IMG/VR virus record: IMGVR_UViG_2541047438_000018
Span: 1-10,593 of that record
Source: a virus
Taxonomy: Duplodnaviria > Heunggongvirae > Uroviricota > Caudoviricetes
DNA length: 10,593 bases
Reading direction: 5' to 3' (one strand)
In this document: piece by piece, positions 3,001 through 6,000 of the stretch
Position numbering within the stretch: the first letter of the stretch is position 1
Layout of the letters: each line of letters begins with the position of its first letter
Program-made: the position numbers

Positions 3001-6000
3001 TGATGCATTTTATTCGATTCACCAATCAGTGGAAAGGTGAGCATCTTGAAGAAGGGAAAAAATTACTTAAGTCAGCTCAGTCACATGAAGCTCAATCTTT
3101 ATTTGAAATTACCCCACAATCAACTCCAGAAGATAAAAAAAATAACTGGTCCAACCCTAATAGAAACAAAAATGAGTGGCGATATACACCTAAGCTGCCT
3201 ACCCCAGTAAAAAAAAGCTCTACTGTACGAATAATCTTCACCAGAGAGAAAGAAGATGTTAAAATTTTATCTAAATATTTCTTTGGACATGAAGATGCTA
3301 GCGCTTCTGATGTGGGGATGCAATGCTTTGATACGGTGATTGAAGAGGTGAAGTGATGTCTGGACAATACATTCCCTATCACTTAAGGCATAATAAGTCT
3401 ATTGATAGAGAGATTTTTCTCGAAAGCCTAAACCTCTTAAGCAAAAGACTAAATATTCAAGAATATACATATATAGGTTTTGGTGGTCCGATGCTTGAAG
3501 ATTTTAGAATCATGCATAATCGTATCGCTCTTTCTGATATGATTTCTCTCGAAGAACAAGAGTCTACTCACATCAGACAAAAATATAATTTGCCTTATAA
3601 TTGTATTGATTGTAAGCTAATATCAGCTCATGACTTTATTCTTGATTATAGTTTTTCTAAACCATCAATAACATGGTTAGACTATGCCTCCCCGAAAAAA
3701 ATACAAACGGATCTAGATGATATACACTTACTAAGTACTAAAGTAAGCTCTTTTGATATTTTGAAGGTCACCTTCCCCATAAATCCTAGTTCTTATTACC
3801 AACGTAGAGTTGGAGAAAGTTTAGATATTTTTAAAGAAGCTTTTATTAATTCATTAAAATCATTGCTTGGGAAAAAGTATCTTGATTTTAATCTTCAGAT
3901 ATCAAATGCAGATCTTTCAGATCGTAAGATTAAAGCTCTTTTAATACGAATTATTACAAACGCTTTTAGATCAGCAATAGAACGTGGTCTTTCAGGACGT
4001 AAGGATAAGATTCAGTATTACCCATTATCCTTAAATCAATATAATGATGGCAGTCATACCATGTTGACAATATCAGGTTTTTTCTCCTCAGAACAAGAAT
4101 ATATAGAGTTATCTAAGGCATGCGACCTTTCTAACTGGCAATTTTATTCAACAAATTGGGAAGACGTGCAAGAAATAGCAATACCAACACTAACAATTAA
4201 AGAAAAGATAAATTTAGATAGTAAACTGCCTGATAAAGAAGCATATCAGGCAGCCGCTGAAGAGTTCTCTTTAAACGAAAATGAACGGGATAACTATTAT
4301 AAATACTATAGGTTATACCCTAACTTCCAAAGAATTATGGTTTAAATATTCGGGCTGTACTCTTTTATTTAATAAATTGTACAGCCCCTTTAATATATAT
4401 TCAGCAACTATTGGTGACACGCTATTTCCTATTTGTCTGAAACTATGCCATTTAGTTACATGAAAGCGAAACCAATCAGGGAAGCCTTGTAATCTAGCAG
4501 CTTCTCTTGGTGTAATCACTCTTGGATGATAAGGGTGGATCGGCCTGACGGCTTGAAAGCTTCCTTTATCTCTAGCGGTTCCCGCCCTTAAAGTCGGGCA
4601 AAAACCATTTGGATCTAATCTTGTAGATCTTGAAATTTTATCAGTTTCCCCAAAAGATAAGGAAGCATAACGCTCTTGGACGATTTTGCTATGTAATGTT
4701 CCGGTACATCCAGATATGATATTATTTTTTAACTTAGCGATCGATTCTGTATCACCAACATTCCGAGGGATCTGCCCCCATAATTTTTCATAAAATCCCC
4801 CTTTTCGATCTTTTTTAATTGTTCGCCAACTCTCAGAGTCTGATTGCCAATTGGCATCGATAATATCTGGTAATCCATACAAAGCATCTTTTACAGTAAC
4901 CGGATCAATCATTTTAGGCATAAATACTTCATCTGAAATATCAAGCTTCAATGATTTTTTTACACCGATAAAAAAATATCTAGTTCGAATAGTTGGAGCA
5001 CCATAATCAGATGCTTTTACCTTGATGGGATCAAGAATATCATAATCACCGCTAACCAAATTAAATGCTTTATTTCTAATGCCAGAATATTTCTCTTGCA
5101 TAATACCTGGAACATTTTCTGCCAAAAAGAATAATGGCTGTAATTCTGATACTAAACGGTAGAAATGCATGTAAAGCTGATTCCTGCTATCATCAGGATT
5201 CCCCTTGCCTATTGAACTAAATCCTTGGCACGGAGGACCGCCAATAATACCATCTATGGGCATATCGTTTTTAAAAAAACCCTTAATTATTTCTGCATTT
5301 AGTAAAGAAACATCTTCTTGGACGTGCAAACTTCTTGGAAAATTAATTGCGTGAGTATTAATAGCATGTTGATCAATTTCAACTGCCATTTTAACATCAA
5401 ATCCAGCACGTGCAGCACCAAGACTTAGACCTCCAACGCCAGAAAACAAATCTATTACATTCATATAGTTGCAACGTCTCTTATTAGTTTCTATGTATTA
5501 TAACACAACTGTTCTTGATGTTTTAACCCCATAAGATAACCTCATAAAGGCTATCCCTTGAAAATACCGGATCGCATAAATTTAATCTTTCAAAACTACT
5601 TGTCTATTAATCGAGCAATTTAAGGTTGTTTTAGTCATGTCGATACCGACATAGTTAACTAAACCCATTTCATCGTCCAACAAATGGGGGTAATACACTT
5701 TGATTTATAGTCGGGTGGGTTTTTCTCTATCTGCCTTTGGTGTTCATGCCCAAGGCAGATAGCCTCAAGCACCCGCAGCAATTCTACTTAACTATCCTTT
5801 TCCCGCAAACCGTTTTTATCCCCAGCGGCAAATCGAATACACCACCAGCGCCACCGCCATCGCAATTCCTACCGTTGTGAATGCTTCAGGCCAGGTCATT
5901 GATTCACCTCCTGCGGCGGTTCTGGTAGCGACATCCAGTGGGTTGCTTGCCTAAGATCATTACCCGGACTAACTGCTATACCTCCGCGCCGGAACGTGCC

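What the first reader, a model, noticed from the sequence alone, without database searches (positions are those of the whole stretch)
4313..4387. Convergent 33 bp 3' overlap of partner gene and methyltransferase, with an inverted repeat inside the MTase 3' coding region
The two coding regions overlap tail-to-tail at 4313-4345, so both transcripts must read into each other. A perfect 9 bp inverted repeat (4352-4387) lies just past the plus-operon stop but inside the MTase coding sequence. This suggests antisense or transcriptional-interference coupling between the modification and putative restriction arms.
Basis: partly seen in the sequence, partly recalled or inferred. Interest (0 to 1): 0.45.

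Follow-up and report, generated by a model that had tools for sequence, protein, structure and literature searches.

The report
Nested terminator hairpins at overlapping gene ends
Two converging prophage genes, a DNA cytosine methyltransferase and the last gene of an ATPase operon, really do overlap by 33 bases, and each hides a conserved RNA hairpin that most likely ends the other strand's transcript, which is a tidy but not unprecedented way of packing two transcription units tail to tail.

Summary
The partner gene (3356-4345, +) and the C5 DNA methyltransferase (4313-5464, -) overlap by 33 bp, and a perfect 9-bp inverted repeat (H1, 4352-4387) lies 6 nt past the partner stop, inside the methyltransferase gene. 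The cassette is identical to ECs_1953-1955 of E. coli O157:H7 Sakai prophage Sp10.

The 33-bp overlap is kept in every relative down to 54% partner identity. H1 is kept by compensatory changes: 11 of 14 pairs changed on both sides, 90% of cells paired against 24-51% in slid controls. Its wobble pairs work only on the + strand (20 G·U, 1 A·C), so it acts in the ATPase-operon RNA.

It lies 60 nt past the methyltransferase stop, inside the partner gene, and favours the - strand (20 G·U, 5 A·C).

The best reading is two strand-specific 3'-end or terminator hairpins, each nested in the opposing gene. They would confine an obligatory antisense overlap of about 180 nt. Regulatory coupling stays possible but is untested, and many relatives place the methyltransferase co-directionally. 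No nuclease was found, so "restriction arm" is unsupported. This is a new member of a known kind.

The parts
1885..1912 (+). Promoter-like site (TTGACT-16-TAAAAT, 10 of 12) about 50 nt upstream of the GHKL start. Candidate promoter of the + operon.
   Evidence: Consensus scan only. The scan found no more sites in the window than in shuffles, so this is a lead, not a finding.
1965..3356 (+). GHKL-type ATPase gene (463 aa), first gene of the + operon.
   Evidence: Pfam PF13589 HATPase_c_3, E 2.9e-9. It matches phrog_20521, unknown function. No PADLOC, NCBIfam or PDB sequence match. RefSeq calls it 'ATP-binding protein'.
3356..4345 (+). Partner gene (329 aa from the ATG at 3356), a PF20553 'putative O-methyltransferase'. 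It is translationally coupled to the GHKL gene (TGATG).
   Evidence: Pfam PF20553, E 2e-89. The AlphaFold model has pLDDT 87.8, and its best PDB matches are all class I SAM methyltransferases. The C-terminus YYRLYPNFQR[IV][MI]V is invariant in the clade. Start context is shown.
4226..4253 (-). Hairpin H2: a perfect 10-bp stem (CTGCCTGATA / TATCAGGCAG) with an 8-nt loop, inside the partner CDS and 60 nt downstream of the MTase stop on the - strand. Candidate 3'-end or terminator hairpin of the MTase transcript.
   Evidence: In 12 sequences, 87.5% of cells are paired against 28-54% in slid controls, and 5 of 12 pairs changed on both sides. There are 20 G·U on the - strand against 5 A·C, and the - RNA is more stable in 9 of 12. 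It is the most stable 40-nt fold downstream of the MTase stop in all clade members, with 0% of control windows as stable. It is absent in the non-overlapping relatives L027 and L028.
4200..4225 (-). U-rich tract following H2 on the - strand (UUUACUAUCUAAAUUUAUCUUUUCUU). It is the antisense of the partner codons for KEKINLDSK.
   Evidence: Read from the sequence. It is U-rich in all clade members.
4313..4345 (.). 33-bp overlap of the two coding regions, codon-for-codon antisense.
   Evidence: It is conserved at exactly 33 bp in all relatives with 54-100% partner identity.
4352..4387 (+). Hairpin H1 (the reported inverted repeat): a 9-bp perfect stem, or 14 bp with two internal mismatches, lying 6 nt after the partner stop and inside MTase codons about 360-371. 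Candidate terminator or 3'-end hairpin of the GHKL-partner transcript.
   Evidence: In 12 sequences, 89.9% of cells are paired against 24-51% in slid controls, and 11 of 14 pairs changed on both sides. RNAalifold finds the same helix. There are 20 G·U on the + strand against 1 A·C, and the + RNA is more stable in 11 of 12. It is in the top 0-2% of 45-nt folds compared with the upstream operon sequence.
4388..4401 (+). Moderately U-rich tract after H1 on the + strand (CUUUAAUAUAUAUU). It is the antisense of the MTase codons for EYILK.
   Evidence: There are 4 U in the first 8 nt. Relatives are similar, except that L022 has none.
4313..5464 (-). C5 DNA cytosine methyltransferase gene (383 aa). 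The catalytic domain ends near residue 361. The last 22 or so residues are a poorly conserved tail that overprints H1 and the partner 3' end.
   Evidence: Pfam PF00145, E 2.6e-61, covering residues 1-361. TIGR00675 dcm. The Yersinia relative L028 has a 367-aa MTase with no tail. The Z2389 protein is listed in an EHEC proteome table (PMC12551062).
5497..5526 (-). Promoter-like site (TTAAAA-18-TATAAT with an extended TG) about 30 nt upstream of the MTase start.
   Evidence: Consensus scan only.

Best explanation
The junction holds two strand-specific RNA 3'-end hairpins, each nested inside the 3' coding region of the opposing gene.

H1 (4352-4387) forms in the + strand RNA, 6 nt after the stop of the GHKL-partner operon. 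There it terminates that transcript or stabilises its 3' end.

H2 (4226-4253) forms in the - strand RNA, 60 nt after the MTase stop, and is followed by a U-rich run. It does the same job for the MTase transcript.

The MTase reading frame has simply stayed open past its catalytic core. It runs through H1 and into the antisense of the last ten partner codons, and stops at the antisense of the partner's Leu320 TTA.

Each hairpin is crossed by the other strand's RNA polymerase while that RNA is being translated. Its wobble pairs become A·C mismatches on that strand, so it should act in one direction only.

The predicted result is two separately promoted units whose mRNAs end near 4395 (+) and 4217 (-). 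They would share a fixed complementary 3' overlap of about 180 nt but would not run far into each other.

Shown here: the overlap, the two hairpins, their conservation, their covariation and their strand preference. Inferred: termination or 3'-end formation at these hairpins, one-directional action, and the length of the overlap.
For: 1. The overlap is real. It is annotated independently twice. It is exactly 33 bp in every relative with 54-100% partner identity.

2. H1 is conserved as a structure. In 12 diverged sequences, 89.9% of cells pair against 24-51% when the 3' arm is slid. Eleven of 14 pairs changed on both sides, and 0 of 500 shuffles reach the observed score. RNAalifold predicts the same helix on its own. 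The inner stem is a different sequence in each lineage.

3. H1 works on the + strand. It has 20 G·U cells against 1 A·C on the + strand, and the + RNA is more stable in 11 of 12.

4. H2 is conserved as a structure. It shows 87.5% pairing against 28-54% slid. Five of 12 pairs changed on both sides, including changes that alter partner amino acids (Q to L, A to E, D to N), and 0 of 500 shuffles reach the observed score.

5. H2 works on the - strand. It has 20 G·U against 5 A·C on the - strand, and the - RNA is more stable in 9 of 12. The two skews point in opposite directions only 130 nt apart, so strand-specific mutation bias cannot explain both.

6. Each hairpin is the most stable local fold downstream of the stop codon on its own strand, with 0-2% of control windows as stable.

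7. The MTase tail is not conserved as protein, apart from a Leu (CTG) and a Gln (CAG) that pair in the stem. The partner C-terminus is invariant.

8. The Yersinia prophage relative L028 has no overlap. Its MTase is 367 aa with no tail, and it has a single 13-bp hairpin in a 58-bp spacer and no H2. That is the layout expected when one intergenic terminator serves both genes.

9. A second clade with a 40-bp overlap has its own pair of hairpins of unrelated sequence. One lies on the - strand inside the partner CDS, and one on the + strand inside the MTase CDS, built on the motif X codons.

10. In a Sakai microarray study, ECs1954 and ECs1955 change together (-2.61 and -3.22) and ECs1953 does not appear in the passage of that table that was read. 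This fits separate units (PMC2241611).
Against: No transcript 3'-end data were available, so termination is inferred.

Neither hairpin is a textbook intrinsic terminator. H1 has only 4 U in the 8 nt after the stem. L022 has no U tract at all. Loops are 8-13 nt. The simple terminator scan flagged neither hairpin.

The U-rich tails are dictated by conserved codons of the opposing gene (EYILK, KEKINLDSK). They may be by-products rather than selected features.

H1 starts only 6-8 nt after the stop codon, so a terminating ribosome would cover its 5' arm.

H2 lies in a well conserved protein-coding stretch. It therefore has fewer informative changes, and its structure was read off the window sequence, which favours it over the slid controls.

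The sequences are related, so the shuffle counts are not probabilities.
Confidence: 0.65

Rival explanations
1. Regulatory coupling. On this view the conserved overlap and the roughly 180 nt of complementary 3' RNA are the selected feature. Convergent polymerases collide, or RNase III cuts the mRNA duplex. The MTase and the GHKL-partner operon then repress each other and set their ratio. This is compatible with the hairpins being 3'-end elements. It differs only in what selection is acting on.
For: The overlap is fixed at 33 bp across deep divergence. Tight tail-to-tail packing, from a 58-bp gap to 40 bp of overlap, is the commonest layout, seen in 35 of 59 junctions that could be classified. 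A second clade evolved its own nested hairpins. Overlapping 3' UTRs of convergent genes with RNase III processing are an established regulatory mode (PMC7154746). Antisense control is documented for the EcoRI system (PMC3141266). In all seven prophage contexts with recognisable phage genes on both sides, the MTase runs with the phage genes and the GHKL operon runs against them. Lytic transcription would therefore run antisense across the operon.
Against: No expression data exist. In 22 of 59 classifiable junctions the MTase is co-directional or divergent, so the system does not need convergent coupling. The overlap length differs between clades (40, 33, 30, 18, 11, 4 and 0 bp, and gaps up to 58 bp). 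The hairpins look designed to stop read-through, not to promote it. The review read reports that in one E. coli dsRNA survey only 0.5% of overlapping transcripts involved 3' regions.
Confidence: 0.25
2. Collision-type termination. The hairpins are pause elements of the kind described for E. coli bidirectional terminators between convergent genes. They hold converging polymerases so that head-on collisions, not the hairpin and U tract alone, release the transcripts.
For: The U tracts are weak or missing, as reported for that class. A preprint shows that a stem-loop is needed to position the collisions (10.1101/2022.10.23.513370). H1 in the window folds about equally well on both strands, -17.2 and -17.6 kcal/mol.
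Against: The described class uses one shared intergenic element. Here there are two hairpins 130 nt apart, with opposite strand preference. In most relatives H1 is clearly weaker on the - strand.
Confidence: 0.15
3. The hairpins act on translation or on the protein. For example, H1 in the MTase mRNA could slow ribosomes before the stop, or the MTase tail could be a functional peptide, with the repeat being incidental.
For: The MTase frame stays open through H1 in all 12 lineages. The one indel in the H1 alignment is 3 nt. Partner Leu320 is TTA or CTA in all 8 lineages tested, and it is the only one of 17 conserved Leu columns for which that is true.
Against: The tail is not conserved as protein. 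L028 lacks the tail altogether. The wobble asymmetry puts H1 on the + RNA and H2 on the - RNA, which is the untranslated side in each case. Leu320 is also CTA in L027 and L028, which have no overlap, so that codon argument is ambiguous.
Confidence: 0.05
4. DNA-level palindromes, either protein-binding sites or cruciforms, or chance repeats in AT-rich DNA.
For: The window has many short AT-rich inverted repeats, 10 against 1.4 expected.
Against: The stem sequences differ between lineages while pairing is kept, which is the opposite of a protein-binding site. G·T pairs are tolerated on one strand only, which matters for RNA but not for duplex DNA. Position relative to the stop codons is fixed.
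Confidence: 0.03

Closest known systems
Convergent genes with overlapping 3' UTRs, or excludons (reviewed in PMC7154746)
   Same: Two convergent units whose mRNAs are complementary at their 3' ends. The 3'-end signal of one unit lies within the space of the neighbouring gene. The resulting duplex is a potential RNase III substrate.
   Different: Here the coding regions themselves overlap by 33 bp. Each unit's hairpin is embedded in the other's coding sequence and is maintained by covariation. No reciprocal regulation has been shown.
Bidirectional terminators between convergent E. coli genes (Ju et al. 2019, as described in 10.1101/2022.10.23.513370)
   Same: A hairpin at the junction of convergent genes with weak U tracts, shaping both 3' ends. 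The relative L028 has exactly this layout, with one 13-bp hairpin in a 58-bp spacer.
   Different: In this window and its clade there are two separate hairpins with opposite strand preference. Both lie inside coding sequence, not in a shared intergenic element.
Rho-independent (intrinsic) terminators
   Same: A stable stem-loop placed just after the stop codon of the last gene, followed by a U-containing stretch. H2 has a 10-bp stem, an 8-nt loop and the tail UUUACUAU.
   Different: The U tracts are short or absent in some relatives. The loops are long. Both elements double as coding sequence for the opposite gene.
Antisense and convergent-promoter control in restriction-modification systems, for example EcoRI (PMC3141266, PMC3874152)
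   Same: A DNA methyltransferase gene and a companion unit whose transcription meets head-on.
   Different: In EcoRI the antisense RNAs come from reverse promoters inside the restriction gene and act near 5' regions. Here the meeting point is the two 3' ends, no endonuclease is identified, and no regulation has been measured.
MORC / paraMORC GHKL ATPases linked to DNA methylases in predicted restriction-modification operons (Iyer, Abhiman and Aravind 2008, PMC2292703)
   Same: A GHKL ATPase gene consistently next to a C5 DNA methylase gene, spread patchily across phyla.
   Different: The constant partner is a class I SAM-methyltransferase-fold protein (PF20553), not a helicase or nuclease. Which paraMORC family the ATPase belongs to was not determined.
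Lambdoid prophage 'morons' (own knowledge: an extra gene with its own promoter and terminator inserted between phage genes)
   Same: A low-GC island (30-37% against about 50%) in the nin region. It has a promoter-like site upstream and a hairpin downstream, and it is oriented against phage early transcription.
   Different: It is a three-gene, two-unit cassette. It is also found outside recognisable prophages (L022).

Membership tests
Intrinsic (Rho-independent) terminator | Stable G+C-containing stem-loop in the nascent RNA | tested here: met
   H1 folds at -17.2 kcal/mol (z = -5.2). H2 folds at -18.7 kcal/mol on the - strand. Both are conserved by covariation.
Intrinsic (Rho-independent) terminator | U-rich tract immediately 3' of the stem | tested here: inconclusive
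   H1 has 4 U in the next 8 nt, and L022 has none. H2 is followed by UUUACUAU, which is 5 of 8. The simple scan flagged neither hairpin.
Intrinsic (Rho-independent) terminator | Placed downstream of the last stop codon of the unit it ends | tested here: met
   H1 lies 6-8 nt after the partner stop. H2 lies about 57-60 nt after the MTase stop. This holds in all clade members.
Intrinsic (Rho-independent) terminator | Transcript 3' ends map just after the hairpin | not testable with these tools
   Term-seq data for strain Sakai exist (PMC7547250), but no text supplement is held.
Shared bidirectional terminator of convergent genes | One hairpin element between the two genes serves both directions | tested here: not met
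   There are two hairpins 130 nt apart with opposite wobble asymmetry: 20 to 1 on + for H1, and 20 to 5 on - for H2. The feature is met only in the non-overlapping relative L028.
Excludon / overlapping 3' UTRs | mRNAs of neighbouring opposite-strand genes are complementary over a stretch | tested here: met
   Complete mRNAs must share at least the 33 bp between the two stop codons. The figure of about 180 nt is an inference from the hairpin positions.
Excludon / overlapping 3' UTRs | Expression of one unit lowers expression of the other | not testable with these tools
   This needs promoter knock-outs and strand-specific RNA measurements.
Type II restriction-modification system | DNA methyltransferase with the conserved catalytic motifs | tested here: met
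   PF00145 E 2.6e-61. TIGR00675. PADLOC MTase_II E 2e-98.
Type II restriction-modification system | Cognate restriction endonuclease | tested here: not met
   The two companion proteins are a GHKL ATPase and a class I SAM-methyltransferase-fold protein. No nuclease family, PADLOC model or PDB relative was found. The C-terminal half of the ATPase was not modelled.
MORC / paraMORC-associated modification systems (PMC2292703) | N-terminal GHKL ATPase domain | tested here: met
   PF13589 HATPase_c_3 over residues 28-132.
MORC / paraMORC-associated modification systems (PMC2292703) | S5 domain after the GHKL domain | not tested
   No structure was predicted for the ATPase.
MORC / paraMORC-associated modification systems (PMC2292703) | Conserved neighbourhood with a DNA methylase | tested here: met
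   A C5 MTase is adjacent in 59 of 65 distinct junctions that had enough flank to judge.
MORC / paraMORC-associated modification systems (PMC2292703) | Linked helicase and/or nuclease | tested here: not met
   None lies in the cassette. The genes on either side are phage genes.

The most novel reading that the evidence does not exclude
On this reading the nested layout is a selected regulatory device and not just tight packing. Translation of the MTase tail across H1, and of the partner across H2, would make each hairpin a one-way gate. The fixed duplex of about 180 nt at the 3' ends would then let the two units titrate each other, through RNase III or through polymerase collision. That would set the ratio of methyltransferase to the GHKL/MTase-fold effector. 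In a prophage it would also switch the effector operon off when antiterminated phage transcription, which runs in the MTase direction, sweeps across it during lytic growth.
Probability: 0.2. Interest if true: 0.6.

Novelty: new member of a known kind. Interest (0 to 1): 0.4.

Why it matters
First, it settles an annotation question. The 33-bp overlap in a cassette carried by 173 of 5426 complete E. coli genomes, including O157:H7 Sakai and EDL933, is genuine and conserved, not a miscalled stop.

Second, it gives a concrete transcript map that can be tested, with two units and two predicted 3' ends. The three-gene cassette (GHKL ATPase, PF20553 methyltransferase-fold protein, C5 DNA methyltransferase) is widespread and experimentally uncharacterised. 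It is missing from the defence-system catalogue searched.

Third, it is a clean example of RNA structure being maintained inside protein-coding sequence of the opposite strand. The direction of the wobble pairs tells which strand uses the structure.

If the overlap proves to be regulatory, it would add a 3'-end antisense mode to the known ways in which modification systems balance their components.

Tried and rejected
1. Nucleotide searches of the cassette against phage and plasmid collections found nothing. Only E. coli chromosomes matched.

2. Rfam (E <= 1, window 1500-6000) has no family at either hairpin. The only credible hit is a sok-like RNA elsewhere.

3. PADLOC (even at E <= 10), NCBIfam and PDB sequence searches gave nothing for the ATPase or the partner. 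PHROGs gave only families of unknown function.

4. Literature searches for Methyltransf_35 / PF20553 found nothing. Searches by locus tag gave only a CGH table, one microarray table and one proteome table. No 3'-end data could be read.

5. I tested whether selection keeps the MTase stop. Partner Leu320 is TTA or CTA in all 8 lineages, and it is the only one of 17 conserved Leu columns for which that is true. However, L027 and L028, which have no overlap, also carry CTA there. I therefore do not claim selection on the stop.

6. My first hairpin finder allowed multi-hairpin folds and gave confusing coordinates. I replaced it with sliding-window scans that use control windows.

7. I rejected the idea that H1 is a shared bidirectional terminator, because of the opposite wobble asymmetries.

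8. I rejected the idea that the palindromes are MTase or regulator binding sites, because the stem sequence is not conserved.
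Full report
WHAT IS THERE

The window is part of a lambdoid prophage. Replication genes, nin-region genes and a Q-type antiterminator all lie on the - strand. A low-GC island at about 1650-5700 (30-37% G+C, against about 50% around it) carries three genes:
- a GHKL ATPase (1965-3356, +; PF13589);
- a partner protein (3356-4345, +; PF20553 'putative O-methyltransferase', E 2e-89);
- a C5 DNA cytosine methyltransferase (4313-5464, -; PF00145).

The 3.9-kb cassette is 100% identical to ECs_1955-1953 of E. coli O157:H7 Sakai prophage Sp10, which correspond to Z2386, Z2387 and Z2389 of EDL933. 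It occurs at 99% identity or more in 173 of 5426 complete E. coli genomes, always on the chromosome.

CHECK OF THE OBSERVATION

Two independent public annotations show the same overlap.

The two frames are in register. The MTase stop TAA is the antisense of partner Leu320 TTA. The last ten MTase residues are the antisense image of the partner's last ten codons.

The repeat GGGCTGTAC / GTACAGCCC (4352-4360 / 4379-4387) is perfect and extends to 14-nt arms with an 8-nt loop. It folds at -17.2 kcal/mol, with no shuffle out of 200 folding as well.

Taken alone, a perfect 9-bp repeat is not rare in this window, which has ten distinct ones against 1.4 expected. The case therefore rests on comparison with relatives.

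RELATIVES

A protein search with the partner returned a graded series from 90% down to 29% identity. Context look-ups and scans of genome, viral and metagenome collections gave 80 distinct junctions.

The ATPase and the partner are always adjacent and co-directional. A C5 MTase accompanies them in nearly all loci that have enough flank, but its place varies:

| MTase position relative to the ATPase-partner pair | Distinct junctions |
|---|---|
| Convergent, coding regions overlapping | 28 |
| Convergent, gap of 0-58 bp | 7 |
| Convergent, another gene in between | 2 |
| Upstream, co-directional | 14 |
| Downstream, co-directional | 7 |
| Divergent | 1 |

The overlaps in the first row are 33 bp (12 junctions), 40 bp (10), 30 bp (1), 18 bp (2), 11 bp (1) and 4 bp (2). 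Two alphaproteobacterial loci overlap by 92 bp.

Within the window's own enterobacterial clade (partner identity 54-100%), every member keeps exactly 33 bp.

THE REPORTED HAIRPIN (H1)

In 12 diverged clade members a stem of 10-15 bp sits at the same place, 6-8 nt after the partner stop. The inner stem has a different sequence in each lineage.

On the alignment, 89.9% of cells pair, against 24-51% when the 3' arm is slid by 1-3 columns. Eleven of 14 pairs show changes on both sides, and no shuffle out of 500 reaches the observed score. RNAalifold predicts the same helix without guidance. The hairpin is also the most stable 45-nt fold, or within the top 2%, when compared with about 2.3 kb of upstream operon sequence in each locus.

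The strand that uses it can be read from the wobble pairs. There are 20 G·U cells on the + strand and only one A·C cell, which would be a G·U on the - strand. The + RNA is more stable in 11 of 12 sequences.

H1 is therefore an element of the GHKL-partner transcript. It lies in the part of that RNA that is no longer translated.

THE MTASE TAIL

The MTase sequence is conserved up to SPIVAEYIL, and the Pfam domain ends at residue 361. The remaining 22 or so residues differ freely between lineages. The exceptions are a Leu (CTG) and a Gln (CAG), which pair with each other in the H1 stem, and the last five residues, which are imposed by the invariant partner C-terminus YYRLYPNFQR[IV][MI]V.

A Yersinia prophage relative (L028) has a 367-aa MTase with no tail and a 58-bp spacer holding a single 13-bp hairpin.

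The tail therefore looks like a reading frame left open across a terminator and into the neighbour, not like a functional domain.

Partner Leu320 is TTA or CTA in all eight lineages tested, unlike the 16 other conserved Leu columns. That could suggest selection on the MTase stop. However, L027 and L028, which have no overlap, also have CTA there, so I do not rely on it.

A SECOND, MIRROR HAIRPIN (H2)

It lies inside the partner gene, 60 nt downstream of the MTase stop on the - strand. On that strand it is followed by UUUACUAUCUAAAUUUAUCUUUUC.

In the 12-sequence alignment, 87.5% of cells pair, against 28-54% when slid. Five of 12 pairs changed on both sides, and some of these changes alter the partner protein (Q to L, A to E, D to N). 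No shuffle out of 500 reaches the observed score.

Its wobble pairs favour the - strand (20 G·U against 5 A·C), and the - RNA is more stable in 9 of 12. It is the most stable 40-nt fold downstream of the MTase stop in every clade member, and it is missing in the two relatives without an overlap.

The evidence for H2 is weaker than for H1. H2 sits in a conserved coding stretch, and the structure was taken from the window sequence itself.

The opposite skews of H1 and H2, only 130 nt apart, act as an internal control against strand-specific mutation bias.

INDEPENDENT RECURRENCE

The clade with a 40-bp overlap has an MTase about 64% identical and a partner about 35% identical. It has its own hairpins of unrelated sequence:
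- GGGTTCTGTCTC-AGA-GAGATAGAACCC on the - strand, about 35 nt past the MTase stop and inside the partner gene;
- GGTAACAGC...GCTGTTACC on the + strand, 29-70 nt past the partner stop. This one is built on the MTase motif X codons (GNSV) and shows one double compensatory change.

Not every member has them. L007 and L047 differ.

HOW IT MOST LIKELY WORKS

Shown: the overlap, the two hairpins, their covariation and their strand preference.

Inferred:
- H1 ends or protects the 3' end of the + operon RNA near 4395.
- H2 does the same for the MTase RNA near 4217.
- The mRNAs share about 180 nt of complementary 3' sequence but do not run far into each other.
- Each hairpin should be ineffective for the opposite polymerase. 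On that strand the wobble pairs become mismatches and the RNA is being translated.

Neither hairpin is a textbook intrinsic terminator. The U tracts are short, and L022 has none. The loops are 8-13 nt, and the simple scan flagged neither. 3'-end stabilisation after Rho-dependent release, or collision-assisted termination as described for E. coli convergent genes, remain possible mechanisms.

A Sakai microarray study lists ECs1954 and ECs1955 changing together. A proteome study lists the Z2389 protein. Both units are therefore expressed in the lysogen.

Mutual read-in is an anatomical fact. Regulatory coupling is plausible. Overlapping 3' ends processed by RNase III are a known mode, and antisense control is documented for EcoRI. 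It is untested here, however, and it cannot be essential to the system, because many relatives have the MTase in the same orientation as the operon.

One additional pattern bears on it. In all seven prophage contexts with recognisable phage genes on both sides, the MTase is co-directional with those genes and the GHKL operon is antisense to them. Any interference during lytic growth would therefore come from phage transcription and not only from the MTase promoter.

The term 'restriction arm' is unsupported. The partner model (pLDDT 87.8) matches only class I SAM methyltransferases. No nuclease or known defence family was found.

COMPARISON AND VERDICT

The closest known things are convergent genes with overlapping 3' UTRs (excludons), bidirectional terminators of convergent E. 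coli genes, and intrinsic terminators. For the gene content, the closest are the MORC/paraMORC-plus-methylase neighbourhoods predicted in 2008.

The finding does not fit the shared bidirectional terminator, because it has two elements with opposite strand preference. It cannot be filed as a type II restriction-modification system, because no endonuclease was found.

It is a well-supported new example of a known kind of arrangement, in an uncharacterised and widespread cassette.

Interest is moderate. The covariation inside coding sequence and the mirror symmetry are neat, but a specialist would not be greatly surprised.

Noticed in passing
window 5650-5774 (-): Full-length match to the Rfam sok antitoxin RNA (RF01794): 50.2 bits, below the gathering score of 59, E 2.2e-9. 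It lies just upstream of the MTase start, at the edge of the low-GC island. It contains a perfect 11-bp inverted repeat (5727-5737 / 5752-5762). No convincing hok-like ORF was seen nearby. There is a 27-aa hydrophobic ORF at 5816-5899 (-).
   Followed up: partly
window 1-10593; L020, L024, L028, L029, L118, L119, L121: In all seven prophage contexts with recognisable phage genes on both sides (the window, L020, L024, L028, L029, L119, L121), the MTase is co-directional with those genes and the GHKL-partner operon is antisense to them. L118, with only one flank identified, fits the pattern. The cassette sits in the nin region in some prophages and between Q and the lysis genes in others (L029, L121).
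   Followed up: partly
L027 5208-8195; L120 3773-5990; also L006, L008, L010: A four-gene variant. A second, larger GHKL ATPase (607-608 aa, about 25% identical to the first) sits between the partner and the MTase, in an operon with the MTase. In this variant there is no overlap. L027 has three direct repeats of TTGACTTT just after the partner stop.
   Followed up: no
L042-L055, L007, L073 (40-bp overlap clade), about 29-70 nt after the partner stop: The + strand hairpin GGTAACAGC...GCTGTTACC uses the antisense of the conserved MTase motif X codons (GNSV) as one arm. The other arm encodes MLLP in the MTase, so part of the MTase sequence there seems dictated by the hairpin.
   Followed up: partly
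window 4313-4315 (partner codon Leu320): This Leu codon is TTA or CTA in all relatives examined, including two without any overlap. The 16 other conserved Leu columns of the partner use mixed codons. No explanation was found.
   Followed up: partly
window 3354-3358: The GHKL stop and the partner start share one base (TGATG), with GAGGTGA just upstream. This indicates translational coupling of the two + strand genes. The ORF tool's GTG start at 3353 is probably not the real start.
   Followed up: yes
L003, L004, L005 (cyanobacteria) and a few metagenome loci: The ATPase and partner are present, but no C5 MTase relative was found within the several kb of flank held. Either another type of methylase replaces it or the pair can stand alone.
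   Followed up: no
window 3356-4345: The PF20553 partner has a confident class I SAM-methyltransferase fold, but no sequence relative in the PDB and no functional study. The cassette would therefore encode two methyltransferase-fold proteins and no recognisable nuclease.
   Followed up: partly
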